Position numbers and translations under genes: made by a program | The notes under the pieces: model-generated | Seen by the model: the letters and a program-made list of their open reading frames with translations, nothing else | What the model was told of the DNA's origin: nothing | Databases searched by the model: none | Part shown: positions 6,023 through 51,651 of the stretch, piece after piece | How the letters are laid out: every line of letters begins with the position of its first letter | Position numbering within the stretch: position 1 is the first letter of the stretch | Source: a virus | Virus record (IMG/VR): IMGVR_UViG_3300045988_071280 | Length of the DNA: 64,000 nucleotides | Strand: one strand, 5' to 3'

Positions 6023-6046
6023 CATATTAATCAATACATTTTTATT

Positions 6047-7105: not shown

Positions 7106-7157
7106 TATTAGTATATACTATTCTATGGTTAAGGTATAGTCCAGTGTTGACACACTG

Positions 7158-7745
7158 CAAGAAAGTTTCATTATGGCATCTCTATCCAATGATTCCGCTA
7201 TGTTAGATGAGCTACTTAGGGGATCCGGTGACCTTCATTCGCTAACAGCTCGAATGGTGTTCGAAGAGATACCAGATGATACACCACTTAAAGAAATTAA
7301 GACAAAATACCATGATCTCAGACAAAAAGCTAAAGGTTATGAATTTTGCTTTAATTATGGAGGAAATGCCTCTACTCTAGTAAAAAATTATGGGATAGAT
7401 GAGGATTATGCGAAATCTATTTACGATAACTACATGTCTGGTTTTGATGGTTTATGTAGATATCAGAAAAATCAGAGAGATTTTGTTAATAGATATGGTT
7501 ATATTATATTAAATAAACTAGGTCTTCGTGCTCATATATATGACTTCTCTGATTGGGAATATTTAAAGCAGAATAACCCAAGAGAGTATAGACAAAGGAA
7601 AGCAGCTTCAGAAAAGCAGGCAATCAACTATAAAATACAGGGCTCAGGTGCTGCAATGTGGAAATTGGCAATGGTAAAGATATTTAATTATATTAAAAAG
7701 AATAATTATCTTAATATAGTTAAATTATGTGTGCCAGTACACGAT
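7158..7745 (+). CDS. polA: family A DNA polymerase, exon 2 (motif A remainder through motif C)
   Basis: Reads QESFIMASLSNDSAMLDELL..DLHSLTA and motif B-like INYKIQGSGAAMWK. Ends at motif C (VPVHD|). Confidence 0.85.
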
Positions 7746-8114
7746 AATTCTCAACTTTGTCGTGTTAAAACTTGGTTAATTGCTGGGAATCTTTAAAATA
7801 CTATATACTACAAAAATATTGAAAAATATTTTGAATGTTTTAATAAATATAGTATATCTATGTTAAATATAATATAGAGATAAGACAATCAGCAGCTTTT
7901 TCCTAAGTAATACAATTATAAGGAAAGAAGTTCAGAGACTATCTAGAAATAGAGTAAGCTCCAAGAGGAGTTGAAACGCCAAGGTAAGACAGTATTAGAT
8001 TTTGAATCTCGTTAACTATCTAATATGCTAAATAGAATTGTCTTATAAGATATAGTCCGATACTGCAAGAGATTGCAGAAATATCGCGGAATCGGCGATA
8101 TTGTTAACATAAAG
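7746..8114 (+). mobile_element. ORF-less group I intron polA-i2 (369 nt)
   Basis: A 7-bp P1 forms between exon ACACGAT (7739-7745) and GTCGTGT (7759-7765). R GTTCAGAGACTATC lies near 7930 and S AAGATATAGTCC at 8047-8058. The intron ends ...AACATAAAG|GAAGTC. Confidence 0.85.
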
Positions 8115-18276: not shown

Positions 18277-19551
18277 AAGTAAATTTTTTTTATTGTATTT
18301 TATTTGTTTTATTTCATTAAATGTATTTAATTTGTATATTATTAAATAATACAATAAAAATACATTTATGAATAATTTAAATCAAGCTATTAGTGATTAT
18401 GAACATTTATTTATAGGAATTTGTGAATTAAGTAAAAAATATAAAATTCCTAATAAAGAAATTAGAAAAGCGTTAGAAGATAAAGGATATTATTTAGGAA
18501 AAGGAGTATCTCCAAAAAGTGTTGTGCATATTAAACTTGCAGTAGAGGAATATAAAAATATTCTTAATGCTGGTGAAGAACCTAATATTCATCAACTGGC
18601 ATTAAAGTATGATATTTCCGATACGTCTATAAAAGACAATTTAATTAGATTAAATCTTCCTGTTGTAAGATACCCTAAAAAAATCCATTTTGATGAACAT
18701 GTCTTTGATGTTATAGATACTGAAGAAAAAGCATATTGGCTAGGATTTTTAACTGCTGATGGGTATATTTGTAGTAGAGATAATACATTTGGAATTGGTC
18801 TAGCTAGTATAGATAAGCATCATGTAGAAAAATATGCCACATTTCTTAAATGTCCTCAACATGTTAAATTTAAGAATAACGAACATGCTGGAATATATAG
18901 ATGTGATTTAGGAAACGCTCATGTAAAGCAAGTATTACAAAAATATGGATTTACTGCTTCTAAATCTTTTGACTGTACCTTTTTAAAAGACCAGTTTTTT
19001 GCAAATTCCGATTTAATAAGACATTATATTAGAGGATATTTTGATGGAGATGGCTGTGTCAGTTATAAAAAAAAGTATAGAAAAACAATTAATGCCACTA
19101 TTTATATTCCGATAGTTTCTATAGTTGGAACAGAAGCTTTTTTACAAGAATTAAGAAATAAATCAAGTTTAATTTGTCTTTTTCAGTCACAACAAAATTT
19201 ATGGAATTTATATGGATCTGGAAAAAAGGCAAAAGATTTTCTTTATTACATTTATAATAACGCTACTATTTATCTAGATAGAAAATACAATATTTATAAA
19301 AATTATATTGCCCCACACTTAGAGAAATCGAGTGTTCCGCAGTGGCCAATATCGGTAGATACTGAAATGTAAATACCGAGATAAATTCAGAGATCACGAA
19401 AGGCTCTGAATCATCGTAACGCGTAGAAGGTGAATAAATATAATCCTTCCAAGAGTGGCTGCCACCTTAAAGGGTGAAAATGTACGCTGAACTATATCGA
19501 ATAACAAGATATAGAAATAAAGGATAAAAAGCCTTTATGATAACAAAATTG
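18277..19551 (+). mobile_element. group I-like intron, family 2 (about 1275 nt), carrying a LAGLIDADG endonuclease
   Basis: Structured 3' region 19373-19551 with ATCGTAACGCGTAGAA / GTACGCTGAACTAT pairing (GCGTA/TACGC) and hairpins that covary with the intron at 22754-24063. Ends ...TAACAAAATTG|AAACCA. The 5' site is set by phase and the shared TGGT|AAA junction. Confidence 0.65.
18368..19372 (+). CDS. LAGLIDADG homing endonuclease
   Basis: IDTEEKAYWLGFLTADGYI and IRGYFDGDGCVSY. Homologous to 22855..23910. Confidence 0.85.
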   Translation: MNNLNQAISDYEHLFIGICELSKKYKIPNKEIRKALEDKGYYLGKGVSPKSVVHIKLAVEEYKNILNAGEEPNIHQLALKYDISDTSIKDNLIRLNLPVVRYPKKIHFDEHVFDVIDTEEKAYWLGFLTADGYICSRDNTFGIGLASIDKHHVEKYATFLKCPQHVKFKNNEHAGIYRCDLGNAHVKQVLQKYGFTASKSFDCTFLKDQFFANSDLIRHYIRGYFDGDGCVSYKKKYRKTINATIYIPIVSIVGTEAFLQELRNKSSLICLFQSQQNLWNLYGSGKKAKDFLYYIYNNATIYLDRKYNIYKNYIAPHLEKSSVPQWPISVDTEM

Positions 19552-19863
19552 AAACCATGGTATTTATTCCCAGGATCTATAGTAAATGAAACTGGAGAAT
19601 TTGTTGAAGGGTCCTTCCAGCATTATCATTATTATCGCCAATTAGGTATGTATTACTGGATGTTATTATCTTATTTAAATTCTGAGAATTATGTAGTATC
19701 TAAATCATATTTAAATATTATATCAGTGCAAACTATTCCTAATTATTCTACTGTAGTATTTAGAATCCCGAATAAATGGTTTATTAAAGGATTAAAAGAA
19801 TTTAAAACATTATTATCTTACGCAGCTTATGCTGAATATAATAAAGAAAAAATATTATCATGA
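19552..19863 (+). CDS. PD-(D/E)XK exonuclease, exon 2
   Basis: Continues KPWYLFPGS...QHYHYYRQLGMYYW in phase 0. The tracked ATG at 19537 lies inside the intron. Confidence 0.6.
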   Translation, partial: KPWYLFPGSIVNETGEFVEGSFQHYHYYRQLGMYYWMLLSYLNSENYVVSKSYLNIISVQTIPNYSTVVFRIPNKWFIKGLKEFKTLLSYAAYAEYNKEKILS

Positions 19864-22310: not shown

Positions 22311-22618
22311 TGATTGTATTTAAATACAATTTGTGCTAATAATAAGAAATTATTATTTGAAACTAGGTTAACTGCTGGGACGCCTGAGATGGTAATCAGC
22401 AACCAAGCTACAGATTTAAATTCTGTAGAAGGCTCATCGACTATTCCTGAAATGGAAGTAGAATCAAGCGATTCGAAATGCCTAGCCCTTAGCATTATAT
22501 CTAATATAGATATAGATATAGATGAAGGTGAAGAGATAGTCAGTTCTCATATTAATAAGGAAGTATGAGGAGGTTTTATTAACCCATATAAGAGTAGCGA
22601 ACTTATATGAACATAAAG
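22311..22618 (+). mobile_element. ORF-less group I intron mpe-i1 (308 nt)
   Basis: Q-like TAATCAGCAAC; R GCTCATCGACTATTC near 22432; S AAGAGATAGTCAG near 22531. Ends ...GAACATAAAG|GATGGT. Splicing restores GDSNH|DGDW (GNHD). Confidence 0.8.
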
Positions 22619-22854: not shown

Positions 22855-23910
22855 ATGGAAAAATTTTTAAATTTATTTTTGAGGAGTGAATTAAGTTTAC
22901 TCGATTTTTGTAAGCAATATAATCTATCTAGAGTTGAATTTGAAGGTTATATTAATGACAAAGGATATTATTGGAAGAATGGAAGGTCTGGCATAAAAGT
23001 TAACCTATTTAAACTGGCAATAGATGATTATGTAAATTCTTTAGAGAGTGTAGGAGCTTCTGCTAAAAGATTTGGAATTAATTCTCAATCTCTTAGTAAA
23101 GATTTAAAAGAATTAGATCTTTATGATGAATCCAGAAAAGGTAAGTCAATAAAAAAATATAATGAACGTATTTTTGATACTATTGACACAGAGGAGAAAG
23201 CATATTGGTTAGGATTTATCTTTGCTGATGGATATATATATTCATCCCCAATCGAAGAGAAAAAATCTAGAACAGATTGGAACTTTGAATTATGTGCTTC
23301 TGGTACTGATAAAGAACACATGGAAAAATTTGCCAAGTTTATAGGATACACTAAAGAATTAAAGATTACTAAAGCTGATAATAAAGGAAATACTAGATGT
23401 AGGGTATGTCTATCTAGTCAACATTTATGGGAAACACTTAATAGTTATGGTTGTACTCCTAGAAAATCTTTAACCTTAAAGTTCCCAAGTCTAAACATAT
23501 TTAAGGACGAGAGTTTAGTATGGGACTTTATAAGAGGTTATATAGATGGAGATGGGTGTATTTCATATGCAACTAAAGATCATTCTAAAATGCTCCTTTC
23601 CTTATTAGGAACAGAAGATTTTTTAAATTCTATACAAGATGTATTTTCTACTAAGTACACTTTGGAATATAATCATAATGATAAGAATTCTAAAACTAGA
23701 GTACTAGAAATAGCTTGTAGACCAGGGCTTAACATTTTACATAAATTATATTCACACTCAAAAATATATTTAAAAAGAAAATATGAAAGATATTTAGAAT
23801 ATTGCCGTCTATATGAGGAATCATATAGAGAATTAGAAACCAATAACGGGGAAGGCTGTGATGTCAATCCCGTGATAAGTACAGAAAGTAAAGAGTCTGT
23901 GCCATCGTAA
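22855..23910 (+). CDS. LAGLIDADG homing endonuclease
   Basis: IDTEEKAYWLGFIFADGYI and IRGYIDGDGCISY. The stop codon lies inside the conserved CATCGTAACGCG core element. Confidence 0.85.
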   Translation: MEKFLNLFLRSELSLLDFCKQYNLSRVEFEGYINDKGYYWKNGRSGIKVNLFKLAIDDYVNSLESVGASAKRFGINSQSLSKDLKELDLYDESRKGKSIKKYNERIFDTIDTEEKAYWLGFIFADGYIYSSPIEEKKSRTDWNFELCASGTDKEHMEKFAKFIGYTKELKITKADNKGNTRCRVCLSSQHLWETLNSYGCTPRKSLTLKFPSLNIFKDESLVWDFIRGYIDGDGCISYATKDHSKMLLSLLGTEDFLNSIQDVFSTKYTLEYNHNDKNSKTRVLEIACRPGLNILHKLYSHSKIYLKRKYERYLEYCRLYEESYRELETNNGEGCDVNPVISTESKESVPS

Positions 23911-26354: not shown

Positions 26355-27092
26355 ATGTACAATGATCAATCTAATGCTTTAGGAGAATTTATTTTTCAAT
26401 CTAAATATGCTAGATATAATTCTAATCTGAAAAGGAAAGAGACCTTTGAGGAATCTGTAGATAGAATATTACAGATGCATTTAAAACATCTTAAAGATAA
26501 ATATCCAGAAGTATTAAATAATGCAGAATTTAATAATGATTTATTAGAAGCCTTTGAGGAGTATAAAAATAAAAATGTTTATGGATCTCAGAGAGCTTTG
26601 CAATTCGGAGGTGATCCTATTTTAAGAAAGAATGAAAAAATCTTCAATTGTTCATATACTTATATAGATGATCTTGAGAGATTTAAACAAATTGAGTATT
26701 TACTATTATGTGGTTGTGGAGTGGGATGTTCTGTTGAATATAAACATGTGAATACACTTCCTGAGATGGCAGAAGTACTTAATAGTTCAGTTGAAGAGTA
26801 TATAATCGAGGATAGTATTGAAGGATGGTCAAATTCTATAGATAGACTAATTCGATATTATTTTAATTCGGATATAGCATATCCTAGATTTGATTATTCT
26901 AAAATCAGACCTAATGGAAGTTTGATATCAGGAGGATTTTTAGCTCCTGGCCCTGATGGTTTAAGAAATGCTCTAAATAAAATAGACTCTTTACTTAATA
27001 TTATTCATAAAACTACTAAAAGATTATCTCCACTTAACTGTGCTGATATATTATCACACTGTGCTGATTCTGTTCTCAGTGGTGGCGTCCGT
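26355..27092 (+). CDS. nrdJ: class II (RTPR-like) ribonucleotide reductase, exon 1
   Basis: FQSKYARY..RKETFEESVDRIL resembles the monomeric B12-dependent RTPR N-terminus. Breaks at VLSGGVR|. ATG 26355 is preferred over the tracked TTG at 26343. Confidence 0.7.
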
Positions 27093-27317
27093 TAGACATT
27101 GGCGGCTTATAATAGTAATATTATAATGATAATTCTGTGAATTCAGGGAATATCTTATATAGATAAGACAATCCTGATCCAAGCACTTAAATATAGTGAA
27201 GGAGCAACGACTATCCCAGACGTGGGAGTAGGGTAATATCATCTACCCGAAGCGCAGAACATCCTATTAAAGGATGATGATATAGTCTAAACTATATAGT
27301 GATATATAGAGTCTTTG
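27093..27317 (+). mobile_element. ORF-less group I intron rnr-i1 (225 nt)
   Basis: R GAGCAACGACTATCC near 27203 and S GATGATGATATAGTCT near 27275. A P9 hairpin CTATATAGTGATATATAG precedes ...AGTCTTTG|CGATGT. Confidence 0.75.
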
Positions 27318-28737
27318 CGATGTCTACGTGGAGACGATGATATAATAACTAATAAAGGATTAGTTAAATTAAAAAATATTAAAAATGGAGATTTAGTATT
27401 AACACATGATGGATCTTTTCAAAAAGTTATTAACAAGGAAAATAATGGGATTAGAAAAGTAGATAGAATAACTACGAATTTAAATATAAATTATTCTACA
27501 AATAATCATAGGTGGTTAGTATTAAATAATCTTTCTGGAGAATTTAAGGAAGTGTATGCATCAGATTTAAAAGAGGGGGATGTTTTATTATTAAATAACA
27601 GAAGTGTATCAGGAGAATATCAGGATTTTCCTAAATATACTGATTTAAAATTACCTAAATTAGATGAAGATTTAGCTTGGTTTATTGGATATTTCTTAGG
27701 GAATGGTAATGTATCTACTAGAACTAGATCTGATACTGGGTTTGAAGATAATAAATTTAGAGTTTGTATCCCAACTAATTACCCTACTATAGTTAATAAG
27801 GTAAAGAGTATCTTTGAAAAAATTGTTGGAACATATAGTATACATAAAAAGAAAAGTGCTATAGAACTTACATCAAGTAAAAAGTGTTTTGTTGAATATT
27901 TTCTAAATATCAAACAACCTAATACTCCAATCCAAATTCCGGATTTTATAAAACAGAATACATCATCTATACAATTAGCATTCTTAGCTGGAGTATTAGA
28001 TTCAGATGGAAGTGTTAGAAATGATAATAAGAATGGAAAAGGATATGGACAAATTACTTTAAATAGTTCTAAATATTCTATATTTATTACTCAACTTCAA
28101 GCTTTATACAATTTAAATGGAATTATTACTAAGACTCAAACAAAAATTAGAAAAGGAAAATCTAATGAGTATATTCTTAAAACAGTTTCATTTAAATATA
28201 GAAAAGAATGTGTAGAGAAATTAAGTCTATATTCCGAAAAGCTTAAGGAAGATTATATTTTAGAAGAAATTTCTAAAGAGAAAGACGGAATTTATTTTCC
28301 TAAATATTTAGCAATAAGAGGAGAAGGTAATAAGATTTGGAATAGTTGTAAAAGATGTTCTTTAAATAAAGTATTAGAATATTATCCAGATTTAAATTAC
28401 ATTCCTGCTGTAATTACTAATATAGAAAAGGACGTTGAAGAAGTAGAAGTATTTGATATAGAAGTAGAAAATAATCATAACTTTTATGTAAATGGAGTAC
28501 TAACACATAATTCTGCTTTAGCTATATTATTCTCTCCTAATGATGAGGAGATGTATAATTCTAAAGTAGGTAATTGGTTTTATGATAATCCTCAACGTGG
28601 AAGATATAATGCTTCTGTTGCTTTGGAGAGAAGTGATGATAATAAAGAAGTATTTAATAAAATCTTTGAATCTACTAAAGAATATGGAGAACCTGGGTTT
28701 TTCTTTAGGTCTGATTCTGGTATAGGATGTAATCCAT
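27318..28737 (+). CDS. nrdJ: RNR exon 2 (one Arg codon, intein, then SALAILF...GCNP + T)
   Basis: GGVR|R followed by the intein, then SA..., which completes the GGxRRSA motif. The exon ends with the first base of a Cys codon (phase 1). Confidence 0.75.
27321..28511 (+). mobile_element. LAGLIDADG intein (397 aa) in the RNR
   Basis: Starts CLRGDDDIITNKGLV with TNNHRW (block B-like). Has LAWFIGYFLGNGNV and LAFLAGVLDSDGSV. Ends FYVNGVLTHN, followed by extein Ser. Confidence 0.85.
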
Positions 28738-29007
28738 AAAATGATGTGGCTATATATAGTGATATATATAGAAAACTAGGCTAATTCGGGGAATCTCTTA
28801 TTTAATAAGACAATCCCGAGCTAAGTGATTAAATATTTAATCTAAATGTGTAACGACTATCCTGAAAAGGAGTAGAACCAAGTGGTTCGAAATGCCTAGC
28901 GTCTTATATTAAATATATAAGATGATGATATAGTCTAATCTCTATAGTGATATAGAGGATCTTTAATTAGATCAGATAAGAAGTAACGAGCTTATCTTAA
29001 TATAATG
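28738..29007 (+). mobile_element. ORF-less group I intron rnr-i2 (270 nt)
   Basis: P1 pairs CCAT with GTGG (28746-28749). R TGTAACGACTATCC near 28849 and S GATGATGATATAGTCT near 28921. Ends ...TAATATAATG|GTTTTG. Splits a TGT codon (T|GT), giving NPCFEIGF. Confidence 0.75.
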
Positions 29008-29399
29008 GTTTTGAAATAGGTTTTAAACCAGTATTAGAAATACAGAAACCTGATGGAGTATCTAAACAAACTGGGATACAGTTTTGTAATTTGATCTCCA
29101 TCTCAGGTAAAGAATCCACAACAGAAGAGAAATTCTATAAACAATGTAAAGCAGCTGCTACTATTGGAACAATTCAAGCTACATATAATTCCTTCCCTTT
29201 CTTAGGTGAAGTAACAGAGCAATTAGCTAAGAATGATCCATTAATTGGAGTATCTATTAGCGGGATTATGATGAATCCTGATATATTATTAAATAAAAAT
29301 ATTCTACGTAAAGGAGCTGAGATTATTAAAGAGCAAAATAATAAAATAGCTAACTTACTAGGAATTAATCCTGCATCTAGGACTACTTGTATTAAGCCT
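29008..29399 (+). CDS. nrdJ: RNR exon 3
   Basis: (C)FEIGFKP...FCNLISI...RTTCIKP|. The lengths of exons 2 and 3 sum to a multiple of 3. Confidence 0.75.
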
Positions 29400-29440
29400 A
29401 AAAATATGATTAAATAGTAGGTTTATAGTAAGACATTTTT

Positions 29441-29448
29441 TAATTTTG
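29441..29448 (+). promoter_or_regulatory. candidate -7 promoter element inside the intron
   Basis: TAATTTTG lies 33 nt upstream of the HNH ATG. Confidence 0.35.
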
Positions 29449-29481
29449 TAGTATTATAAAAAATACTTAAAATTAAAAAAT

Positions 29482-30516
29482 ATGAAATCACAATTAATAA
29501 TCAAATTAGAAAATTTAAAAAATTTAAAAACTCTTGTTGAAGAAGAACTATATTCTGCAAAGGATATATGTAACTTTCTAGAATTACCAGAAGAAAAAAA
29601 TACTATTAGAAATATTAATAGTTACTTAAGACGATATAAAATAAAGTCTCCTTATCCAAAAATAACAGATCGTAATTCTAGAATTATAGAAAAATATAAA
29701 TCAAAAGTACCTGAATGGTGGAATCATCCAAAATTAAAAACTGTAATTGAATTTAAACTAAAAAATAATTTAGTTATAAATTATGCAGATAAGGATAAAA
29801 AAATTGCTAGATATGTAATCTCTGTAAAATATCATCCAAGAGCTTCATCTGCAAATCAAGTAAAGGCTCATATTATATTATGGGAATTACATAATAAACA
29901 ATTATTTCCTGATAATTATGTAATGATTCCAAAAGACGGAAATTTTTTAAATTTAAATATTGATAATTTTGATGTAATGTCAAACGAAGAATATAGATCT
30001 ATCACAGCTACTAGTAAAAAAAATCATTTTTATACTACTGGTAGTAAATCTGGAGTATGTTATAAAGGAGGATGGAAAACTATCTCTAAAAAATTTCTTC
30101 AGACAAATACATCATGCGAAATATGTGGATGTTCAAATAAATATAAGTTAAATGTACATCATATAATTAGCTACTATTTATTTGATAAATCTAAGGATGC
30201 ACATTTTTTAGAAAACTTAATTTGTTTATGTGATTCATGTCATCAAAATCTACATTTAGGAAAATTAAACTTATTGGGCATCTTATCTGAAAAGATAAGA
30301 TTAAAACTTCTTAAATTGCTGGAAACACTTAAAGAAAAATTTAAAAATGATGATAAATTATTATTAGTAAATTTTTCAATTAAGTCAATCAGCAGCCAAG
30401 CTGATTTGAAATCAGAAGGTTCAACGACTATCTCGAAAGAGAGTACATCACAAGCTAATGGTGATGGAAATAGGAAGCATCTTAACTCAAATGAGAAAGA
30501 TGATGATATAGTCTAA
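29482..30516 (+). CDS. HNH homing endonuclease
   Basis: CEICGCSNKYKLNVHHII...NLICLCDSCHQNLH. The C-terminal ~40 codons are read from the Q, R and S core elements. Confidence 0.8.
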   Translation: MKSQLIIKLENLKNLKTLVEEELYSAKDICNFLELPEEKNTIRNINSYLRRYKIKSPYPKITDRNSRIIEKYKSKVPEWWNHPKLKTVIEFKLKNNLVINYADKDKKIARYVISVKYHPRASSANQVKAHIILWELHNKQLFPDNYVMIPKDGNFLNLNIDNFDVMSNEEYRSITATSKKNHFYTTGSKSGVCYKGGWKTISKKFLQTNTSCEICGCSNKYKLNVHHIISYYLFDKSKDAHFLENLICLCDSCHQNLHLGKLNLLGILSEKIRLKLLKLLETLKEKFKNDDKLLLVNFSIKSISSQADLKSEGSTTISKESTSQANGDGNRKHLNSNEKDDDIV

Positions 30517-30588
30517 TCTATATGGTGACATATAGCAGTTCATAGGAGAACGTATATAAGAGTTGCGTCTTATATAGAATATATAATG

Positions 30589-31686
30589 GATGGAAATATA
30601 AGTACCTTAACTGGAAACACTCCTGGATGTCATGGTCAACATGCGAAAAGATATATCCGGAGAGTTCAGGTTAATAAAGAAGAAGAAGCAGGTAAAGTAT
30701 ACGCTAAATATAATCCTAAAGCAGTAGTAGAATCTGTTTGGTCTAATAATCATACTGATAATTGTATTATGTTCGCAATAGAATCGGATGATAACGTTAA
30801 AACCAAATCGGAATTATTAGGAATTAGACAATTAGAAGTAGTTAAATTACTATATAATAACTGGATTCTTCCAGGAATGGTAGATCCTACTAATCCTGTA
30901 TGTAATAATGTATCTAATACTGTTATAGTTCCAAATCAAGATTGGCATAGAGTAAAAGATTGGGTATGGAATAATAAAAACTTTATTGCTGGAGTATCAT
31001 TTATTCCTTCAACTGGAGACATTACTTTTACACAACCTCCATACTCAGAAGTATTTATTCCAGAAGAATTGGTAGAAATGTATGGAGACGGAGTAATATT
31101 TGCCTCAGGTTTAATCGTAGACGCAGAAAAAACTTTCGGAAATTTATGGAGAGCTTGCGATACATTTAATTATAAAGGGGAGAAGTTATATTCTACTGTT
31201 GAAGATGCTAAAGAATTTATTAAAGAACTTAATGTAACAGAAGATCCCTCTTATTTAAATAAACCTCATTCTGAATGGGTAAAAGCTAATTCAATTCAAT
31301 ATAATAATTGGGTTAAAGTATTATCCACATTGGGATATACAGAAGAATTTATAGATGAAATTTTAGATTCTGACATAGAAATTCCAATTGCAGAAATTCA
31401 GAAGTATTTAGATAAAACAGCATTTACTAATGTAAAAAATCTAAATGCTAAGAGAGATATAATGCGGAGAATGAAAAAATTCGGAGATACATATTTTGGA
31501 GAAGATTATAACACTATGATTGAAGCTCTTAAATATGTACAATTATATCACGATTGGTGTGATATAACTAGAAACTATACTCCTATCGACTGGACTATAG
31601 TTAAATGGAAAAAAGTACTGATCGATGCAGATACAACAGGAGCTCAGGCCTGTTCTGGAGGACAATGTGATATAACTAAAATATAA
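30589..31686 (+). CDS. nrdJ: RNR exon 4 (C-terminus)
   Basis: IKP|DGNISTLTGNTPGCHGQHAKRYIRRV, with a C-terminal CSGGQC cysteine pair. Confidence 0.7.
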   Translation, partial: DGNISTLTGNTPGCHGQHAKRYIRRVQVNKEEEAGKVYAKYNPKAVVESVWSNNHTDNCIMFAIESDDNVKTKSELLGIRQLEVVKLLYNNWILPGMVDPTNPVCNNVSNTVIVPNQDWHRVKDWVWNNKNFIAGVSFIPSTGDITFTQPPYSEVFIPEELVEMYGDGVIFASGLIVDAEKTFGNLWRACDTFNYKGEKLYSTVEDAKEFIKELNVTEDPSYLNKPHSEWVKANSIQYNNWVKVLSTLGYTEEFIDEILDSDIEIPIAEIQKYLDKTAFTNVKNLNAKRDIMRRMKKFGDTYFGEDYNTMIEALKYVQLYHDWCDITRNYTPIDWTIVKWKKVLIDADTTGAQACSGGQCDITKI

Positions 31687-33626: not shown

Positions 33627-34996
33627 TGGAGAATGCAAATAACATATTTTCTGAATTTGGAAGTGCTTTAATACAAGAAAAAGAAGATCAAGAGTTGGAA
33701 TCTGAAATAAAAGGATTCCATACTCTGGATTTTGAATTATCTTGGGAACAATTATCTGCAATTAAGAAAATTATTAAGTTTATAAATAATAAAAATATTA
33801 GTAACAAAGACAATACTGATAATAATAAATTATTATTATCTGGAAAAGCTGGAACAGGCAAAACTTCTGTTATATCACAAGTAATAGCATATTTAGATAA
33901 TCATAGCTATGATTATGTAGTGTGTGCTCCAACTCATAAAGCTAGAATTAATTTAGAAAAACTTACTAAGACTGAAACATTAACACTACACCAATTATTA
34001 TTATTAAAACCCAATCTAGAAATTGAACAATTAAATATTAAAGAATTAGAATTTCAAAGTGGATTAAAACATAATTGGAAAGCTAGAATTCCTAGATTAG
34101 TAATAGTAGATGAATGTAGTATGATAACCTCTGATTTATATGAGTTTATAGATAAAGAGTTAGTATCAAAAAGAAATGTAAAAATAGTTTTTCTAGGTGA
34201 TTCAGCGCAACTACGAGGAGTTAAAGATTTGGAAATATCTAAAGTATTCTCTTTAAAGAATAAAATAGAATTAACCAAAATATATCGGCAGAAAGACGAA
34301 GCTCCGTTATTATATTTATTAGATGAATTAAGAACATCTCCGCATTTTGGTAAGTTTAAAGAATTTAAATCTGACTATGGATCTTTATATAACTGTAGTA
34401 ATGTAAAAGATTTTATAATCAAAGCTGGAAAGAATTTTAAGAAGGCTATTAGTAAAGAAGATCCGTACTTATGTAGAATTCTTACATATACAAATAAAAG
34501 ATTAAATGAGTATAACACTGTACTTAATAAACTTTTATTTAATAATAATGAAGAATATAATATCGGAGGATTCCTAACTGGATATGATAACTTTGAGTCC
34601 GATGATTATTTTGGAAAAATATATAATTCTCTAGATTATATAATAAAAGATGTAAAACCTTATATTAAACCTCCATCTCAGATATTTCCTCTAGAATTAA
34701 AGGGATTTATATTAACTTTAAAAGATTTTATATATGAAGATGATATAGAAGTATTTATTATATCTAAATATATAGATCCTGAAATATTAAATTCTTTTAT
34801 ATCCTTATTTGAAACAACTAGACTAACCGCTCTAAAAGTAGACAAGAAAGTAAATTCTAGATTATATGGAGCATTATGGGGTAAATACTATAAGTTACAA
34901 CAATACTTTGCATCTCCAATTGATTTATATTATGACGGGAGATTAATAAAATCAGCAACGCTAAAGCCTGGATATGCTATTAGCACGCATAAGAGT
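33626..34996 (+). CDS. SF1 Dda/RecD-like DNA helicase, exon 1
   Basis: LLLSGKAGTGKTSV (Walker A), VIVDECSM (Walker B), FLGDSAQL. Breaks in AISTHKS|. Confidence 0.8.
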
Positions 34997-35233
34997 TGAT
35001 TTTTTGGCTCTTGTAAAACCTACTTAATTGACGGGAACATCCTTAGAGATTATCCTACTAAATTATAACAGTAATGTATATAATGGTGAGATTAACTACC
35101 TCAGTATAGTAAAAAAGGATAATATTGGACAATCCGCAGCTAAATTTCCATGTATGGAAAAGAGTTCAGAGACTATCTCGAAAGAGAGTACATTTAAATT
35201 ATTAAAATTTATTTGGAAACAGTAGGGTATTTA

Positions 35234-35265
35234 TTTGGACTTATGAATTTTTATGGTTACTTTTG
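35234..35265 (+). promoter_or_regulatory. Bacteroidota-type promoter inside the intron
   Basis: TTTG 35234-35237, a 20-nt spacer, then TACTTTTG 35258-35265, upstream of the GIY-YIG ATG at 35308. Confidence 0.5.
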
Positions 35266-35307
35266 TGTATTGAAATCAATATAAATAGTAACTTAAAAAT
35301 TCGTATA

Positions 35308-36066
35308 ATGGAACAATGTTATTTACCAAATCAAAAAGACAAATTAGTTAGGTTAGGATTTATTTATGCTTTAAAAAATCCTGACACAGGAGAAATTTTT
35401 TATGTAGGTGCTACCGAATCTACTCCAAAAGATAGATTAGCAGGACACTATAATCATTTTATAGAAGCTTTAGAAGGAAAGCGAAAAATGAATAAAAAAT
35501 TTGAATATTTTAAAAAAATTTATCCTAAAACAGCAGATTGGGAAGTATTAAAAATAGTAGAAAATGATTATTTATATAAGATAGAAGTAGAATATATAGA
35601 AAAATATTCAAAACTATGGAATTTAACTAATCAAACTAAAGGAGGAGAAGGAGGAGATACTTTTACAATGCAGGATTCTATTGCTAAAAAACGTATATCA
35701 GAATTAATATCTTCTAAAATTGTTGGGAGACCAAAACCAGAAGGTTTTGGAGAGAATTTATCTAAAGCTAGGATGGGAGGAAATAATCCAGCTGCCGGAA
35801 AAACTAGATATAACGTTGCAATTTTCAATAATAAAGAGGAGTTTATTAAAATTATTCACTACCCCTATGAAATTACTGATTTTCTTGATGGAGTTTTTCC
35901 GGAAGAGCCACATGAAAAACATGCTAAAACAGCTGGAAACGTAATGGCAGGAATAAGAAAAAACCAGAGTAAAACTTCAAAAAACAATGGTTATATATTT
36001 AAAGATGTTTCTATTTGTCCACAAGAAATACAAGATATAGTCCAATCTACAAATGAAAGTTTGTAG
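35308..36066 (+). CDS. GIY-YIG homing endonuclease
   Basis: GFIYALKNPDTGEIFYVGAT..R..GH, with NUMOD3-like GRPKPEGFGENLSKARMGGNNPAAGK. The C-terminus overlaps the S element. Confidence 0.8.
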   Translation: MEQCYLPNQKDKLVRLGFIYALKNPDTGEIFYVGATESTPKDRLAGHYNHFIEALEGKRKMNKKFEYFKKIYPKTADWEVLKIVENDYLYKIEVEYIEKYSKLWNLTNQTKGGEGGDTFTMQDSIAKKRISELISSKIVGRPKPEGFGENLSKARMGGNNPAAGKTRYNVAIFNNKEEFIKIIHYPYEITDFLDGVFPEEPHEKHAKTAGNVMAGIRKNQSKTSKNNGYIFKDVSICPQEIQDIVQSTNESL

Positions 36067-36073
36067 TATTATG

Positions 36074-47174: not shown

Positions 47175-50100
47175 TTATTCTTCCGAATTTAATAAATTAA
47201 ACACATTCTGAGTTTGTTTTATTACATAAAAATTCTTAGGAACCTCTTTTCCAAAAGAACTTTCTCCTTTAACTATTCTAATAGTAGAGTCTTTCAGTCT
47301 TTCTAAAAAACTAAGAGCTACTGGAGTATCTAAAGAAAGTCCTAGAGGAGCCCAAAATACAAGTTCATCAGTGGAATTTAATAAAGTTTGTCTTAGAATA
47401 TTCTTAGTTAAGGGATCAAATTCTTCTCCACTTTCTTCTTTATCTTCCATTATTAATCTAAATAATAATGCAAGTAAAGCAGCCCACATAGAATCTGCTA
47501 ATAATTGTCTAGCATTTCTAATTCTATAATCTTTATGTTCTAAAGTTGCATCAGTATCCTTATTTATATAATATTTAAATAAATATTGCATATAATAGAA
47601 AGTACTATTCACCATTCCTTCTATAAATCTTCCAGACCATTCCTTTGCAGGGATATCTGTAACTTCTGTAGTTTCTATTAAATGAGATTCTCCATCCTCA
47701 CCTATCACAGATTTTAAATAAAGTAAATTTCCTTCTTCATCTGTTTTTTGTTTCCATTCTCCTTTAGGTGTTTTATCAGTTCCTCCTAAGAAGAATCTTT
47801 CACGAGTAGATGAGAAATAAGATTTAAATTGGAATAGTATCTTACCTACAAATTTATGTCTAGCAGCAAATGCATTTTCATGATCCATATATCCGAATAA
47901 TGAATCGGCAGAAGATTTTATATTTCTCTTTTCTGCTATAGTATATGCGGAAGGTAATGCTACTGGATTAGATTCGTTAAATTTTAATTCTTCCCAATCA
48001 AGATCATTCTCATGTTCAATATTAAATTGAGTTAGATGTGCGATATAATCTGCTTTTTGTTTATTATATAAAGGATGCGATTTATCTCCAGATGCGAATA
48101 TAGAATATCTCCCATCTTTAGTCCAATCATATATCAATTCTCCATCTTTAGACATATGGTGAGCTTTCAAACAATCATCATGAATCATTTGAGCTACTAT
48201 AAATACCATTCTATTTAAAAAATCTGGAGCAGTAGTAGCCCAATAAGCACCTCTTCTTAATAATCCTTTATAACCTTTTCTATCAGAATTTAATTCGTAC
48301 GCTAACGAATTAGCATCCATTCTAGTCATCCCATAAAAATGGTTTAAAGCTTCTACTAAAGTCCAATTATCAGAACTTACACCGGTATTTCCCATAACTA
48401 TACCATAAGCTTTAGCAGCATCGGCAGTAGTAAAACCATTATCTCCTAACAACCGTCCAGCAGCTCTAGTCATTAGAAGATAAAATCCTTGAATTGGCTC
48501 TCTAACTAATGAATTAAGATTTAATGCCAACATTGAAACTCGTGCAGCAGTAGTAATAGGTTGAAATACTTTATAGAATTTTTGATTGGATTTTTCTATA
48601 GAACTTTCTCCGAATATAACAGTTTTTAAATAAATATCAATTTGCTTATTTAAATTCTCGAAATTAATATTAGTATCATAAGATTGTAAATAGATAGCAT
48701 GTCTTATATCATTAATAAGGGGAAGAATAGTATCAAAAGAAGATTTCCTTATATAAGCATGAACAAATACATCCTCTAATAACTCTAAGTTAGTCTCCCA
48801 ATAAGAGGTATCTTGCTCTGAAAGATATTTTTCTCTAGTAGTTGGAGAGACGTTTAGAAAATTATACATTGTTAAATAATCATTCTTCCCAGCTTCGGAA
48901 TCCTGTTCAATTGTCTCTTCTTGTGCTTTAGTAGCTCTTCTTATATCAACTTGTTCGTTCCATTTATCTTGTATCCACGAAAAGAATCCTTTACTTTTCA
49001 ATTGTGAAAATGCAGTACCTCTTAACAATGGGATATCAAAATAATGTCCACTTTGAATTAATTCTTGAACTGGAGTAGTTTTTATTGCTTCTTCTTCTGT
49101 CAAATTATAATCAACTCCGCGCTTTATTCTATTTACATTCCATAAGAAAGATTTCAACCATTTTCGTTCGGCTTGAGAAAGATCATTTGTCATATCATAA
49201 GGATTCTTTGCTCTAAAATTACGAGCTATTCTTCCAGTAGAATCTCTCTCAAACATATTTTTAAATGCGTTAGTTGAATCTTTAAAAGTCCATCGTTCTA
49301 CTTGAGTAAATCCTTTTGATTTATATAACTCTAACACTCGTTGTAAAGATTTCTCCTTATATTTCTCAAACCATTCACGCATCTTCTGGAATTGTAATTC
49401 AGTTAGATCTACTATATCTTTCATTAAAGGGATCATTTCGGGATTTTCTACATAATACCCTCCTAAGGTCATAGTTTCAGATATGTTTTTGAGGTTGAAA
49501 CTTATTTGACTTATATCATGATCTGAATCGAAATAAATACGTTTATAATGTAGAATAGTTCTAGATATTTGGGAATATAATAAAGATAATCCAGTTGGAT
49601 CGGAATCATAATTATTATCTGCTCTAATAATTAATCTATTTCCAGCTACTTCCCTAATAATCTCTTGTAGTTTTCTTAATTGTTCTATTTTATACTTTCC
49701 TGTCTCATTATCTAATTTATAATTATTATAGAAATCATAAATTAAATCAGAAGCTCCTTTTACTAATTCTGTTCTATCTTGTCCTAGAATAGTTAATAGT
49801 CTTAATTTTAAAGCTTCTATCCTATCTGCAATTATTAATTCTGATTTAAAGTAATTTGTAATACCTAATTCCTTAGATAAAATATTAAAATTATGCGTTA
49901 ATTTATTTATATCTATAGGATAAGATTGTCCTTCTTTATAATTAATTACTTGAATATTTCCTATTTTAAAGTTACTAAAATAATCATGTAATTCATTTAT
50001 AACTAACATTGTCTCTAATAACTTAGCGTTTCCTACAGTATTGGATAATAGATTTTTTAATTTCTTATATTTAGCCTCAGATCCTAAATTTCCAAAGATA

Positions 50101-51647
50101 TTATGAGATCCATTATTCCAATTAAGTTTTTTTGTTAAATTTATATCTGTCATAGATATAATATCTACTATGTTATTAGCTACATCTCTAAACGCATAAA
50201 TTCCTATTTCTGCTAATTCTGGAAGGTCTAATACTTCATATCCTGGATTATCTATGTAATTACAAAATACTCTAGTTAGATATGTATTTGCTTTTTGTGG
50301 AAGGTATTTAAATTTATTTTTATCTTCTAAAGATTCAGAAGTCTTTTTTAAATAATCAAACTCTTTCCATAAAGTAAAATAGTAAGATTCACTTCTATCC
50401 TCCATTTTTTCTTGATACTCTCTAGCTTTTTCTAATAATTCTTCTTTAGTTGGAGCTTCTATTACGGGAATATCTTGTCCCTTTCTTTTAGATATATAAT
50501 CATTAAAGAACCATACTTTTCTATAATTATCATATTTAGCCACCCTCTCTACAAATTCTTTCGGAGTTTCTTTAGATAATTTCCCAAAAGCGATTTCTGA
50601 GTATTTAGCCACATTTTTAGTAGCTTCTGTATTATAACTTACTTCTGATACATTTGCTCTAATATGTTCTTGTACTATCCTAGTTATATATCCATTAGGA
50701 TAAGATAATCTTTGCATAGATTTTCCTTCGGTAGTTTTGTTTATAGGTTCTTCAACTTTATAAGATGTAAATGTCTCATTATTATAATCTATATCCGATA
50801 TAATAATAGGAACTATATTTAAAGAAGCTAACTTTACCCCAATTCCATTATTAGCTAATAACGCTCTATATGCAGCTAATTGATAATCTATTGTTAATTG
50901 TTTAGAAGAATACCATGTTTCATATGGTTTATTTGAGATTTTAAAATCATAAATTTCTACATTTCCTCTTTCATCTATAGCTAATAAATCTAATCGTCCT
51001 ATGATAGGATCAGATTCATCATCAGAAGTTTGTAGTGTTAATTCCGGGATAAATTTATACTTTTTTCCTTTACTAATTTTAGATTCTAAATTCTTAAATG
51101 TAAAATATAAATTTTCGATTGTATCATATGGAAGATCAACAATCTGAGATATTGTATTTAAATCCTGATTTTTGAAATATAACTCAGCTACTTTATGTAC
51201 TTTATCTCCAATCTTTGCTAGATGTCCCCAATTTTCTATATCAAATTCTATCTGTCTCTTTGCGTCTTCTTCTGATAATCCTTCTTTAGTTAAAAGTTTT
51301 AACTGATTCTTTTTATATTCCTCTACTTTAAATTCTGGAATTACACGATCTCCATTAGAATTTAGCCAAGTAGTTATAGCTGTAGTTACTCCTAATCTCT
51401 TAGGGGTAACTACTTCATTTTCTTGCGTTGACTGATTAAATTTGGACTCTTGTACAGTAGAATTTAACGCTAAGAGTTTATTATATATAGAATCCTGAAT
51501 AGTATTACTTTCATCAAATACCGCATCTCCATATTTATTATAATAGAGCATATTTCCATAATTCTTGGCTATGAAAGCATCTAAGTCTCGTTCAGAATTA
51601 AAGGAATGCTTAGATCCGTTTATTGTTAAAAAATATTTACATGCCAT
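47175..51647 (-). CDS. 1490-aa protein with N-terminal PD-(D/E)XK nuclease-like motif (possible virion/ejected protein)
   Basis: GRLDLLAIDERGNVEIYDFKIS near 50942-51000. The virion role is inferred only from position beside the RNAP-like gene. Confidence 0.6.
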   Translation of the reverse strand: MACKYFLTINGSKHSFNSERDLDAFIAKNYGNMLYYNKYGDAVFDESNTIQDSIYNKLLALNSTVQESKFNQSTQENEVVTPKRLGVTTAITTWLNSNGDRVIPEFKVEEYKKNQLKLLTKEGLSEEDAKRQIEFDIENWGHLAKIGDKVHKVAELYFKNQDLNTISQIVDLPYDTIENLYFTFKNLESKISKGKKYKFIPELTLQTSDDESDPIIGRLDLLAIDERGNVEIYDFKISNKPYETWYSSKQLTIDYQLAAYRALLANNGIGVKLASLNIVPIIISDIDYNNETFTSYKVEEPINKTTEGKSMQRLSYPNGYITRIVQEHIRANVSEVSYNTEATKNVAKYSEIAFGKLSKETPKEFVERVAKYDNYRKVWFFNDYISKRKGQDIPVIEAPTKEELLEKAREYQEKMEDRSESYYFTLWKEFDYLKKTSESLEDKNKFKYLPQKANTYLTRVFCNYIDNPGYEVLDLPELAEIGIYAFRDVANNIVDIISMTDINLTKKLNWNNGSHNIFGNLGSEAKYKKLKNLLSNTVGNAKLLETMLVINELHDYFSNFKIGNIQVINYKEGQSYPIDINKLTHNFNILSKELGITNYFKSELIIADRIEALKLRLLTILGQDRTELVKGASDLIYDFYNNYKLDNETGKYKIEQLRKLQEIIREVAGNRLIIRADNNYDSDPTGLSLLYSQISRTILHYKRIYFDSDHDISQISFNLKNISETMTLGGYYVENPEMIPLMKDIVDLTELQFQKMREWFEKYKEKSLQRVLELYKSKGFTQVERWTFKDSTNAFKNMFERDSTGRIARNFRAKNPYDMTNDLSQAERKWLKSFLWNVNRIKRGVDYNLTEEEAIKTTPVQELIQSGHYFDIPLLRGTAFSQLKSKGFFSWIQDKWNEQVDIRRATKAQEETIEQDSEAGKNDYLTMYNFLNVSPTTREKYLSEQDTSYWETNLELLEDVFVHAYIRKSSFDTILPLINDIRHAIYLQSYDTNINFENLNKQIDIYLKTVIFGESSIEKSNQKFYKVFQPITTAARVSMLALNLNSLVREPIQGFYLLMTRAAGRLLGDNGFTTADAAKAYGIVMGNTGVSSDNWTLVEALNHFYGMTRMDANSLAYELNSDRKGYKGLLRRGAYWATTAPDFLNRMVFIVAQMIHDDCLKAHHMSKDGELIYDWTKDGRYSIFASGDKSHPLYNKQKADYIAHLTQFNIEHENDLDWEELKFNESNPVALPSAYTIAEKRNIKSSADSLFGYMDHENAFAARHKFVGKILFQFKSYFSSTRERFFLGGTDKTPKGEWKQKTDEEGNLLYLKSVIGEDGESHLIETTEVTDIPAKEWSGRFIEGMVNSTFYYMQYLFKYYINKDTDATLEHKDYRIRNARQLLADSMWAALLALLFRLIMEDKEESGEEFDPLTKNILRQTLLNSTDELVFWAPLGLSLDTPVALSFLERLKDSTIRIVKGESSFGKEVPKNFYVIKQTQNVFNLLNSEE

Positions 51648-51651
51648 ACTG

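What the first reader, a model, noticed from the sequence alone, without database searches (positions are those of the whole stretch)
26355..31686. One RNR gene invaded four times: three group I introns and a LAGLIDADG intein
The exons are 26355-27092, 27318-28737, 29008-29399 and 30589-31686. Splicing restores GGVR|R...SA, GCNP|CFEIGF (a TGT codon split T|GT, with exon lengths 1420+392 summing to a multiple of 3) and TTCIKP|DGNIS. Introns 1 and 2 are ORF-less (225 and 270 nt), and intron 3 carries an HNH endonuclease. The intein has a Cys1 N-terminus, two LAGLIDADG blocks and a THN|S C-terminus. Producing an active enzyme requires three RNA splicing events plus one protein splicing event.
Basis: partly seen in the sequence, partly recalled or inferred. 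Interest (0 to 1): 0.8.

Follow-up and report, generated by a model that had tools for sequence, protein, structure and literature searches.

The report
Phage RNR gene with four self-splicing inserts

Summary
Rfam finds three group I intron cores (99, 92 and 80 bits; cutoff 50). Removing a 397-aa Cys1...His-Asn|Ser LAGLIDADG intein leaves an 818-aa protein.

A sibling phage contig (L001) carries the same gene uninterrupted. The spliced, intein-deleted CDS aligns to it without gaps (2457 = 2457 nt, 94.8% identity), so all four boundaries are exact.

Each intron follows a U paired to a G in P1 and ends in G. Each guide sequence matches its own exon, with compensatory changes. Exteins, intein and endonuclease domain are all under purifying selection (dN/dS about 0.1).

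Across about 40 related contigs every insert is independently present or absent, and some alleles carry five inserts. Sibling alleles have an intein 1 nt from the intron 2 site. Intron 1 and the intein, 3 nt apart, are never found separately among close relatives.

The enzyme is a divergent RTPR-like class II RNR, and the phage is probably a Zeta-group crAss-like phage.

Precedents exist: Brochothrix phage A9 nrdE (three introns plus an intein), SPbeta, Twort, Trichodesmium, and Zeta crAss-like phages. Verdict: new member of a known kind, interest about 0.4.

The parts
26355..27092 (+). RNR exon 1 (246 codons, ends ...SGGVR)
   Evidence: ORF. Ungapped match to the uninterrupted allele L001 10001-10738. 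The last 33 nt carry 12 synonymous differences from the empty allele.
27093..27317 (+). Group I intron 1, ORF-less, 225 nt. P1 pairs are U27092.G27102, G27091-C27103, C27090-G27104 and C27089-G27105. The terminal base is G27317. An in-frame TAG is the first intron codon.
   Evidence: Rfam RF00028, 99 bits. Absent from L001. P1 with covariation. Stop codon.
27318..27320 (+). Single extein codon CGA (Arg247) between intron 1 and the intein
   Evidence: The empty allele has AGG here.
27321..28511 (+). LAGLIDADG intein, 397 aa: Cys1, block B TNNH, LAGLIDADG blocks FIGYFLGNGN and LAGVLDSDGS, block F/G DIEVENNHNFYVNGVLTHN, +1 residue Ser
   Evidence: Pfam Intein_splicing E 2e-14, LAGLIDADG_3 E 8e-11, Hom_end and Hint_2. 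C-terminal block aligns to the gp41-1 intein 6QAZ. Absent in-frame from P0001/L001. dN/dS 0.11-0.14 with no stops in 3 alleles.
28512..28737 (+). RNR exon 2 remainder (SALAILF...GCNP plus the first base of the Cys323 codon)
   Evidence: 99.6% identical to L001 10742-10967.
28738..29007 (+). Group I intron 2, ORF-less, 270 nt, inside the TGT codon of the thiyl-radical Cys (T|GT). P1 pairs are U28737.G28746, A28736-U28747, C28735-G28748 and C28734-G28749. The terminal base is G29007. A TAA stop is created at the junction.
   Evidence: Rfam 92.3 bits. Exact empty-site comparison. Compensatory exon/guide change in L012, L029 and L031.
29008..29399 (+). RNR exon 3 (GT of the Cys codon ... TTCIKP)
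29400..30588 (+). Group I intron 3, 1189 nt. The guide sequence GGGC at 30276-30279 pairs with G29396-U29399 (U.G at the splice site). The HNH gene is inserted in the P1 loop. The ribozyme core runs from ~30276 to 30588. The terminal base is G30588.
   Evidence: Rfam 80.1 bits at 30256-30535. ORF-less 269-nt version at the same site in L004, L013 and others, whose 5' end AAAATATTGGGCAT shows the P1. 99.8% identical copy in L003.
29482..30516 (+). Intron-encoded HNH homing endonuclease ORF (344 aa). The HNH motif is at aa 212-258. The C-terminal ~85 codons overlap the ribozyme core.
   Evidence: Pfam HNH 27.7 bits above the 21.4 cutoff, plus HNH_3 and HNH_2. The exact protein is on 6 contigs.
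30589..31686 (+). RNR exon 4 (DGNIS... to the C-terminal CSGGQC redox pair and stop)
   Evidence: 96.9% identical to L001 11360-12457.

Best explanation
This is one functional gene for a divergent RTPR-like (class II, monomeric-type) ribonucleotide reductase of a crAss-like gut phage. It is colonised by four selfish self-splicing elements.

How the enzyme is made:
- The ~5.3 kb primary transcript must lose three subgroup-IA-like group I introns by guanosine-initiated self-splicing.
- Each intron pairs its own guide sequence with the last 4 exon bases, with a U.G wobble at the 5' splice site and a terminal G at the 3' site.
- Ribosomes reading unspliced RNA stop 0, 0 and 5 codons into the introns.
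- The spliced mRNA encodes a 1215-aa precursor.
- The 397-aa intein then removes itself by the standard class 1 route: Cys1 acyl shift, attack by Ser+1, cyclisation of the terminal Asn. This restores the GGVRR|SA motif and gives the 818-aa enzyme.

How the elements spread at the DNA level:
- They spread by homing during co-infection.
- The intein's LAGLIDADG endonuclease and intron 3's HNH endonuclease cut or nick empty alleles. Repair then copies in the element plus a variable tract of flanking exon.
- Introns 1 and 2 have no endonuclease and depend on others.
- Intron 1 most likely rides with the intein, which lies 3 nt away.

Shown: the architecture, the exact boundaries, the structural hallmarks, purifying selection and presence/absence polymorphism.
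Inferred: actual RNA and protein splicing, endonuclease activity and cobalamin dependence.
For: Introns:
- Rfam scores are 80-99 bits.
- The consensus fold of 13 family members recovers P1, P7, P8 and P9.
- The U.G at the splice site is invariant in 13 of 13 sequences.
- 11 of 37 pairs show double compensatory changes.
- Each guide matches its own exon.
- Exon CCA to CCG is compensated by guide GUGG to GCGG in intron 2.

Intein: Pfam domains plus the Cys1, TxxH and HN|S residues.

Functionality:
- There are no stops or frameshifts in the exons.
- The catalytic residues are intact: Cys99, Asn321-Pro-Cys323-x-Glu325, Cys349 and the C-terminal CxxxxC.
- dN/dS is 0.14 for the exteins, 0.11-0.14 for the intein and 0.12-0.14 for its endonuclease part.

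Mobility:
- Among phages more than 88% identical, alleles exist with no insert, intron 2 only, intron 3 only, introns 2+3, NP|C intein + intron 3, and up to five inserts.
- Clusters of synonymous changes hug the occupied sites: 12 in the 33 nt 5' of intron 1, and 6 in the 27 nt 3' of intron 2.
- The tract length varies between alleles.
- All 14 intron-1 loci have GGTGGCGTCCGT before the intron, while close empty alleles have GGTGGTGTGCGC.

Enzyme family: best hits are PDB 1L1L RTPR and TIGR02505 RTPR at E 1e-45.
Against: No transcript or protein data exist, so splicing is inferred.

The first LAGLIDADG motif carries Asn instead of the usual acidic residue in every allele, so the intein endonuclease could be a nickase or inactive.

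The RTPR model score is below NCBI's equivalog cutoff and Pfam RNR domains are barely detected, so cofactor and substrate are not established.

Flanks of intron 3 show no co-conversion signature.
Confidence: 0.88

Rival explanations
1. Three invasions, not four. Intron 1 and the intein form one composite mobile unit. The ORF-less intron sits one codon upstream of the intein, and the intein's LAGLIDADG endonuclease moves both in a single homing and co-conversion event. This would be collaborative homing between an intron and an intein.
For: Intron 1 ends 3 nt before the intein.

In 14 loci with intron 1, every one that extends far enough has CGA plus the intein next. That covers at least 7 distinct alleles at 90-99% identity.

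Junction patterns for intein-without-intron and intron-without-intein found nothing in IMG/VR.

Intron 1 has no endonuclease gene.

Collaborative homing of ORF-less introns with separate endonucleases is documented (PMC3984707).
Against: With only 3 nt between them, linkage is expected from descent alone, so co-occurrence does not prove co-mobilisation.

A 58%-identical homolog (P0028) has the orthologous intein without intron 1, so the two arose separately.

Endonuclease activity is untested and its first catalytic motif is atypical.
Confidence: 0.45
2. The gene is a decaying pseudogene, overrun by mobile elements and no longer yielding active enzyme.
For: Four interruptions; no expression data; the atypical first LAGLIDADG motif. 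Some phage RNR genes with insertions have been suggested to be degenerating (PMC3653736).
Against: The exons are intact and collinear. Catalytic residues are conserved. Extein dN/dS is 0.08-0.14. All splicing hallmarks are present, with covariation. The allele recurs in several independent assemblies of 100-160 kb genomes.
Confidence: 0.06
3. The inserts are retained because they regulate the enzyme, for example conditional RNA or protein splicing that times dNTP synthesis during infection, rather than being purely selfish.
For: The inserts sit at or next to catalytic residues (the GGVRR|SA loop, the thiyl Cys codon, KP|DG). Purifying selection acts on the intein. The literature speculates on regulatory roles of phage introns (PMC3653736).
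Against: Every insert is dispensable. Near-identical phages carry none of them or any subset. This is the pattern of selfish elements, not of a required regulator.
Confidence: 0.08
4. Assembly artefact or chimera of several phage variants.
For: The source is metagenomic.
Against: An identical arrangement is found in L005 from a different assembly. Related multi-insert alleles appear in IMG/VR, ENA and Logan contigs. The junctions are exact and in frame.
Confidence: 0.01

Closest known systems
Brochothrix phage A9 nrdE (as summarised in Dwivedi et al. 2013, PMC3653736)
   Same: A phage RNR large-subunit gene split into four coding pieces by three introns, plus an intein-encoded homing endonuclease. 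This is the same count and mix of elements.
   Different: It is a class Ib nrdE in a SPO1-like Firmicutes phage. Here it is an RTPR-like class II enzyme in a crAss-like Bacteroidota-type phage. The insertion sites and element lineages are unrelated as far as tested.
Bacillus prophage SPbeta RNR genes (Lazarevic et al. 1998; 'Lightning strikes twice', Derbyshire & Belfort 1998; cited via PMC3653736)
   Same: [quoted passage not shown] An endonuclease-bearing intron is in the partner gene.
   Different: Fewer elements per gene, and class Ib. I could not read the primary papers, so site-level comparison is not verified.
[quoted passage not shown]
   Same: A single RNR gene needs multiple RNA-splicing and multiple protein-splicing events. 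It holds the record of seven elements.
   Different: It is a cellular gene with group II rather than group I introns. From my own memory it is class II; this is unverified here.
Zeta-group crAss-like phages (Yutin et al. 2021, PMC7886860)
   Same: [quoted passage not shown] The contigs here are 113-182 kb. PolA is 44-54% identical to crAss-like PolA. At least 5 group I introns plus 1 intein lie in this 64 kb.
   Different: The paper illustrates MCP, TerL, PolB and RNAP genes, not the RNR gene. Membership of this window in the Zeta group is inferred, not shown: the contig names were not found in its supplements.
Phage T4 td/nrdB/nrdD and Staphylococcus phage Twort nrdE group I introns (PMC3653736, PMC3984707)
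   Same: Subgroup-IA-type self-splicing introns in nucleotide-metabolism genes, inserted at conserved catalytic sites. Some carry HNH endonucleases and some are ORF-less. Early in-frame stops are present.
   Different: One or two introns per gene and no intein.
Collaborative homing of ORF-less introns with separate endonucleases (Bonocora & Shub 2009; Zeng et al. 2009; reviewed in PMC3984707)
   Same: An ORF-less intron and an endonuclease encoded elsewhere converge on the same conserved target.
   Different: There the endonuclease is free-standing. Here the candidate helper is intein-encoded and lies one codon away. This is untested.

Membership tests
Group I intron (Rfam RF00028) | Conserved catalytic core (P3-P9) scoring above the curated threshold | tested here: met
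   99, 92.3 and 80.1 bits against a gathering score of 50, with full model coverage 1-253.
Group I intron (Rfam RF00028) | 5' splice site after a U that forms a U.G wobble with the internal guide sequence in P1 | tested here: met
   In the consensus fold, columns 8/18 are U.G in 13 of 13 sequences. Neighbouring P1 pairs covary (CG, GC and AU types) so that each guide matches its own exon. For intron 3 this was resolved through the ORF-less allele L004.
Group I intron (Rfam RF00028) | Terminal guanosine (omega G) at the 3' splice site | tested here: met
   G27317, G29007 and G30588 immediately precede exon sequence, as defined by the empty allele.
Group I intron (Rfam RF00028) | Autocatalytic, guanosine-dependent splicing | not testable with these tools
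   Needs in vitro transcription and splicing, or RNA-seq.
Intein with LAGLIDADG homing endonuclease (class 1) | In-frame insertion absent from orthologous exteins | tested here: met
   1191 nt (397 codons) present in the window and absent from P0001/L001, with exact restoration of GGVRR|SALAILF.
Intein with LAGLIDADG homing endonuclease (class 1) | Splicing residues: Cys/Ser1, block B TxxH, C-terminal His-Asn, and a nucleophilic +1 residue | tested here: met
   C1; STNNH; THN; Ser+1. Pfam Intein_splicing at 54 bits against 35.8, and Hint_2. The C-terminal block aligns with the solved gp41-1 intein.
Intein with LAGLIDADG homing endonuclease (class 1) | Two LAGLIDADG motifs, each with a catalytic acidic residue | tested here: inconclusive
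   LAGLIDADG_3 scores 42.6 bits against 22.5. The second motif, LAGVLDSDGS, is canonical. The first motif, FIGYFLGNG(N/S), has Asn in all alleles. The endonuclease part has dN/dS 0.12-0.14.
Intein with LAGLIDADG homing endonuclease (class 1) | Protein splicing and site-specific DNA cleavage | not testable with these tools
   Needs expression and cleavage assays.
HNH intron-encoded homing endonuclease | HNH nuclease motif above the curated threshold, encoded inside the intron | tested here: met
   PF01844 at 27.7 bits against 21.4, aa 212-258. The ORF 29482-30516 lies within intron 29400-30588. There is no informative PDB relative.
Class II adenosylcobalamin-dependent RNR, RTPR type (TIGR02505; PDB 1L1L) | Sequence membership at the curated equivalog threshold | tested here: not met
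   TIGR02505 is the best family (E 1e-45), but 156 bits is below the 340 cutoff. 1L1L matches at E 3e-13 over aa 148-410. It works like RTPR and is most similar to it, but is a divergent clade.
Class II adenosylcobalamin-dependent RNR, RTPR type (TIGR02505; PDB 1L1L) | Catalytic residues: thiyl Cys in N-P-C-x-E, redox Cys pair, C-terminal CxxxxC | tested here: met
   These residues are invariant in an alignment of 8 homologs: C99, N321-P322-C323, E325, C349, C808 and C813. By eye the NPC-x-EI and CNL motifs correspond to the 1L1L sequence shown.
Class II adenosylcobalamin-dependent RNR, RTPR type (TIGR02505; PDB 1L1L) | Adenosylcobalamin dependence and NTP substrate | not testable with these tools
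   Biochemistry is required.
Zeta-group crAss-like phage (Yutin et al. 2021) | Placement in TerL/MCP phylogeny; 145-192 kb genome; high intron and intein density | tested here: inconclusive
   Size (113-182 kb contigs), density and crAss-like PolA all fit. No TerL or MCP lies in the window, and the contig names are not in the paper's supplements.

The most novel reading that the evidence does not exclude
The RNR gene of this phage clade is a natural arena in which RNA-level and protein-level parasites compete and cooperate at the same few codons.

[quoted passage not shown] The co-converted exon bases double as the intron's P1 partner.

(b) At the thiyl-radical cysteine codon, a group I intron (T|GT) and an unrelated intein (|TGT) are mutually exclusive occupants in near-identical phages. 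Each destroys the other's homing site.

An intron mobilised by an intein-encoded endonuclease has, to my knowledge, not been demonstrated.
Probability: 0.35. Interest if true: 0.6.

Novelty: new member of a known kind. Interest (0 to 1): 0.4.

Why it matters
For annotation: this 5.3-kb stretch is one gene, not five ORFs. Gene callers split it into pieces of 246, 474, 108, 344 and 366 aa.

Rfam at default thresholds missed at least two further introns in the same window. Intron load in these abundant gut phages is therefore probably under-counted.

For biology: the clade offers a natural series of near-identical genomes, ranging from no inserts to five in one gene. There are at least ten distinct insertion sites, several directly in front of catalytic cysteines.

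This series is ready-made material for studying three questions: the homing cycle, co-conversion tract lengths, and intron versus intein competition for one site. It does not change what is known about how such elements work.

Tried and rejected
1. Megablast of the region against GenBank phages gave only short intron-core matches, including crAss-like phages cr53_1 and cr118_1. The genome itself is not in that collection.

2. I first read a proximal AGGUUU (29421-29426) as the intron 3 guide, which would give a U-A at the splice site. I rejected this after the ORF-less allele L004 showed the GGGC guide, which lies at 30276-30279 in the window.

3. Rfam scans of sibling loci returned nothing for L018, L087, L090 and L091. 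Yet the L018 intron is 268/269 identical to the L020 intron that scored 101.7 bits. I treat this as a tool quirk, not as absence.

4. Permissive Rfam (E<=1) over 17-37 kb found no further introns. BLAST against the RNR introns then showed that 22311-22618 and the helicase insert are group I introns.

5. The PDB search with the HNH protein was uninformative.

6. The metagenome pattern for the intein start found nothing, because the alleles read GATGATGTA rather than GATGATATA. The second scan, with an intron-1 pattern, worked.

7. The primary papers of Derbyshire & Belfort 1998 and Lazarevic 2001 are not held.

8. The supplements of Yutin 2021 do not list the contig accessions I recovered.

9. 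I considered a genes-in-pieces RNR assembled from separate polypeptides, as for Aeh1 NrdA. I rejected it because the exons lack starts and one junction lies inside a codon.

Full report

Yes, at exactly the stated coordinates.
- The ORF map shows four co-directional pieces of one protein plus an extra ORF.
- Rfam finds three full-length group I intron cores. They lie at 27083-27309 (99 bits), 28728-28957 (92.3 bits) and 30256-30535 (80.1 bits), against a gathering score of 50.
- Joining 26355-27092, 27318-28737, 29008-29399 and 30589-31686 gives 3648 nt, an open frame of 1215 codons plus stop.
- Within it lies an in-frame 397-aa element at 27321-28511. It starts CLRGDDD and ends VLTHN, followed by Ser. 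Removing it leaves 818 aa.
- Pfam calls this element Intein_splicing, LAGLIDADG_3, Hom_end and Hint_2. It calls the ORF 29482-30516 an HNH endonuclease above threshold.

**2. The decisive control: an empty allele.**
- A protein search with the 818-aa product found P0001. It is also 818 aa, 96% identical over its full length, and is encoded on ~160-kb contigs.
- Its locus L001 has the same neighbours: a 253-aa gene upstream, then four small genes and dUTPase downstream. Its RNR gene is an uninterrupted 2457 bp.
- BLAST of the window against L001 breaks exactly at the proposed boundaries.
- The spliced, intein-deleted window CDS aligns to L001 without any gap (2457 = 2457 nt, 94.8% identity).
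- The first and last bases of each intron differ from the adjoining exon bases, so there is no positional ambiguity.
- Seven uninterrupted homologs down to 49% identity are collinear across all junctions. GGVRRSA, NPCxE and KPDG are invariant.
- PDB 1L1L (L. leichmannii RTPR) aligns straight through junctions 1 and 3.

**3. Are the elements intact?**

Introns:
- Each 5' splice site follows a U and each intron ends in G.
- I aligned 13 non-identical members of this intron family, taken from the three sites in several contigs. The consensus fold recovers P1, P7, P8 and P9.
- The splice-site U.G is invariant. 11 of 37 pairs show double compensatory changes. Each guide sequence fits its own exon.
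- In intron 2, alleles whose Pro codon is CCG instead of CCA have guide GCGG instead of GUGG.
- For intron 3, the ORF-less 269-nt allele in L004 begins AAAATATTGGGCAT. The window guide is therefore GGGC at 30276-30279.
- It follows that the HNH gene sits in the P1 loop, and that the ORF simply reads on through the core to a stop in the conserved GUCUAA.
- Ribosomes entering unspliced RNA meet stops after 0, 0 and 5 codons.
- The three introns are paralogous. Introns 1 and 2 are 82% identical over 191 nt.
- The 37-42-nt insert after GACUA in the Rfam alignments looks like the P7.1/P7.2 pair of subgroup IA. This is my inference.

Intein:
- It has Cys1, a TNNH block B, a canonical block F/G and Ser+1.
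- Its C-terminal block aligns with the solved gp41-1 intein.
- Between the window and two other alleles it has no stops and dN/dS of 0.11-0.14. The endonuclease part alone gives 0.12-0.14.
- One oddity: the first LAGLIDADG block reads FLGNG(N/S), with Asn where an acidic residue is expected, in all alleles.

Exteins: dN/dS is 0.14 overall, and 0.08 for codons 231-818.

**4. Evidence of mobility.**
- I mapped the gene in about 40 related contigs from IMG/VR, ENA, Logan and JGI-indexed records.
- Among phages more than 88% identical, the following alleles exist:
  - no insert (L001, L002, L006);
  - intron 2 only (L010, L012, L033);
  - an ORF-less intron 3 only (L004, L013-L017);
  - introns 2+3 (L020);
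  - a different intein at NP|C plus intron 3 (L003, L018);
  - alleles with extra inserts after Gly157 (GIY-YIG-type ORF), after Pro198 (HNH-type ORF), at Gly120|Cys121 (a second LAGLIDADG intein) and before Cys349.
- L125, L127 and L128 carry five inserts each, so the window allele is not the maximum.
- More distant homologs have inteins directly before Cys99 and Cys349, and the same RR|S intein without intron 1.
- Synonymous substitutions pile up next to occupied sites: 12 in the 33 nt 5' of intron 1 plus CGA versus AGG for Arg247, and 6 in the 27 nt 3' of intron 2. There are none beside intron 3.
- The recoded tract is shorter in other intron-1 alleles, as expected for variable co-conversion.
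- All 14 intron-1 loci read GGTGGCGTCCGT before the intron, the bases that form P1. Close empty alleles read GGTGGTGTGCGC, which could not form that P1. The flank therefore arrived with the intron by DNA-level homing.

**5. Intron 1 and the intein.**
- They are separated by a single codon.
- Every locus with intron 1 that extends far enough has CGA plus the intein next.
- Patterns for either element alone found nothing in IMG/VR.
- This fits a composite cassette moved by the intein endonuclease, analogous to collaborative homing (PMC3984707). Tight physical linkage alone would give the same pattern, so I rate this reading at about 0.45.
- At the catalytic Cys323 codon, intron 2 (T|GT) and the NP|C intein (|TGT) are alternative occupants. 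I saw no allele with both.

**6. What enzyme and what phage?**
- The best family is adenosylcobalamin-dependent RTPR: TIGR02505 at E 1e-45, but 156 bits against a 340-bit cutoff, and 1L1L at E 3e-13.
- The catalytic Cys, Asn and Glu residues and the C-terminal CxxxxC are conserved.
- I file it as RTPR-like, not as an equivalog. Cofactor use is inferred.
- The window's PolA fragment is 44-54% identical to crAss-like phage PolA.
- Relatives sit on 113-182-kb human-gut contigs.
- The window holds at least two more group I introns (22311-22618 and 34982-36073 in the helicase gene), plus further endonuclease-bearing inserts.
[quoted passage not shown] Membership is not proven.

**7. Comparison with what is known.**
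- Brochothrix phage A9 nrdE is described there as four fragments separated by three introns, plus an intein-encoded endonuclease. SPbeta nrdE has an intron plus an intein, and Twort nrdE has two introns (PMC3653736).
[quoted passage not shown] 2003, citation seen).
- RNR is the second most intein-rich bacterial protein (PMC4760082).
- The present case is therefore a new member of a known kind.
- What is modestly new is the host enzyme class (RTPR-like), the lineage, the one-codon intron-intein adjacency, the intron-or-intein alternation at the thiyl cysteine codon, and the rich allele series.

**8. Verdict.**
- Observation: confirmed.
- Interpretation: supported, with the qualifications given above.
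- Novelty: new member of a known kind.
- Interest: 0.4.

Noticed in passing
window 22311-22618: A 308-nt ORF-less insert splits a gene that is 439 aa and uninterrupted in L001. It follows a T, ends in G and is 81% identical to the core of RNR intron 2. It is therefore a further group I intron, missed by Rfam even at E<=1.
   Followed up: partly
window 34982-36073 (ORF 35263-36066): A ~1.09-kb insert splits the PIF1/RecD-like helicase at the STHKS|QGS motif. The helicase is 500 aa in L001. The insert follows a T, ends in G and shares a 34-nt core segment (91%) with intron 3. Its 5' exon flank is synonymously recoded. It is probably a group I intron with a 267-aa ORF of no known family.
   Followed up: partly
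window 4580-7796: The family A DNA polymerase appears split. ORF 4580-5938 holds the exonuclease domain plus the first third of the polymerase domain. It is followed by a LAGLIDADG_3+HTH ORF (6020-7105) and then ORF 7173-7796. There is no Rfam hit and no similarity to the RNR introns.
   Followed up: no
window 18279-19557: A ~1.28-kb insert relative to L001 carries a 334-aa LAGLIDADG_3 ORF (18368-19372).
   Followed up: no
window ~24965 vs L001 7590-8605: L001 has about 1 kb (two small genes of 179 and 187 aa) that the window lacks.
   Followed up: no
window 26655-27044 (RNR codons 101-230): This is a mosaic block. dS against L001 is 0.47 here, compared with 0.02 for codons 1-100 and 0.15 downstream. 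It holds 24 of the 36 amino-acid differences. This suggests recombination with a more divergent allele upstream of the intron 1/intein site.
   Followed up: partly
L125, L127, L128, L129, L090/L091, L029, L019 (RNR gene): Sibling alleles carry up to five inserts. They use extra sites after Gly157 (GIY-YIG-type ORF), after Pro198 (HNH/AP2-type ORF with an intron-3-like 3' core), Gly120|Cys121 (a second LAGLIDADG intein) and before Cys349 (an intein). Distant homologs have inteins before Cys99 and Cys349, the latter ending in Gln.
   Followed up: partly
window 22855-23910 (+) and 58286-59353 (-): These look like free-standing LAGLIDADG-type endonuclease ORFs. The first is present in L001 too.
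   Followed up: no
window 47175-63997 (-): A block of very large ORFs (1490, 1397, 708 and >1059 aa) has almost no PHROG hits. tblastn with the 1490-aa ORF found only distant unannotated human-gut phage records. This may be the divergent crAss-like transcription or virion block.
   Followed up: no
L018, L087, L090, L091: The Rfam tool returned no hits for these loci, although they contain introns nearly identical to ones scoring >100 bits in other loci. This is a tool behaviour to be aware of, not biology.
   Followed up: yes
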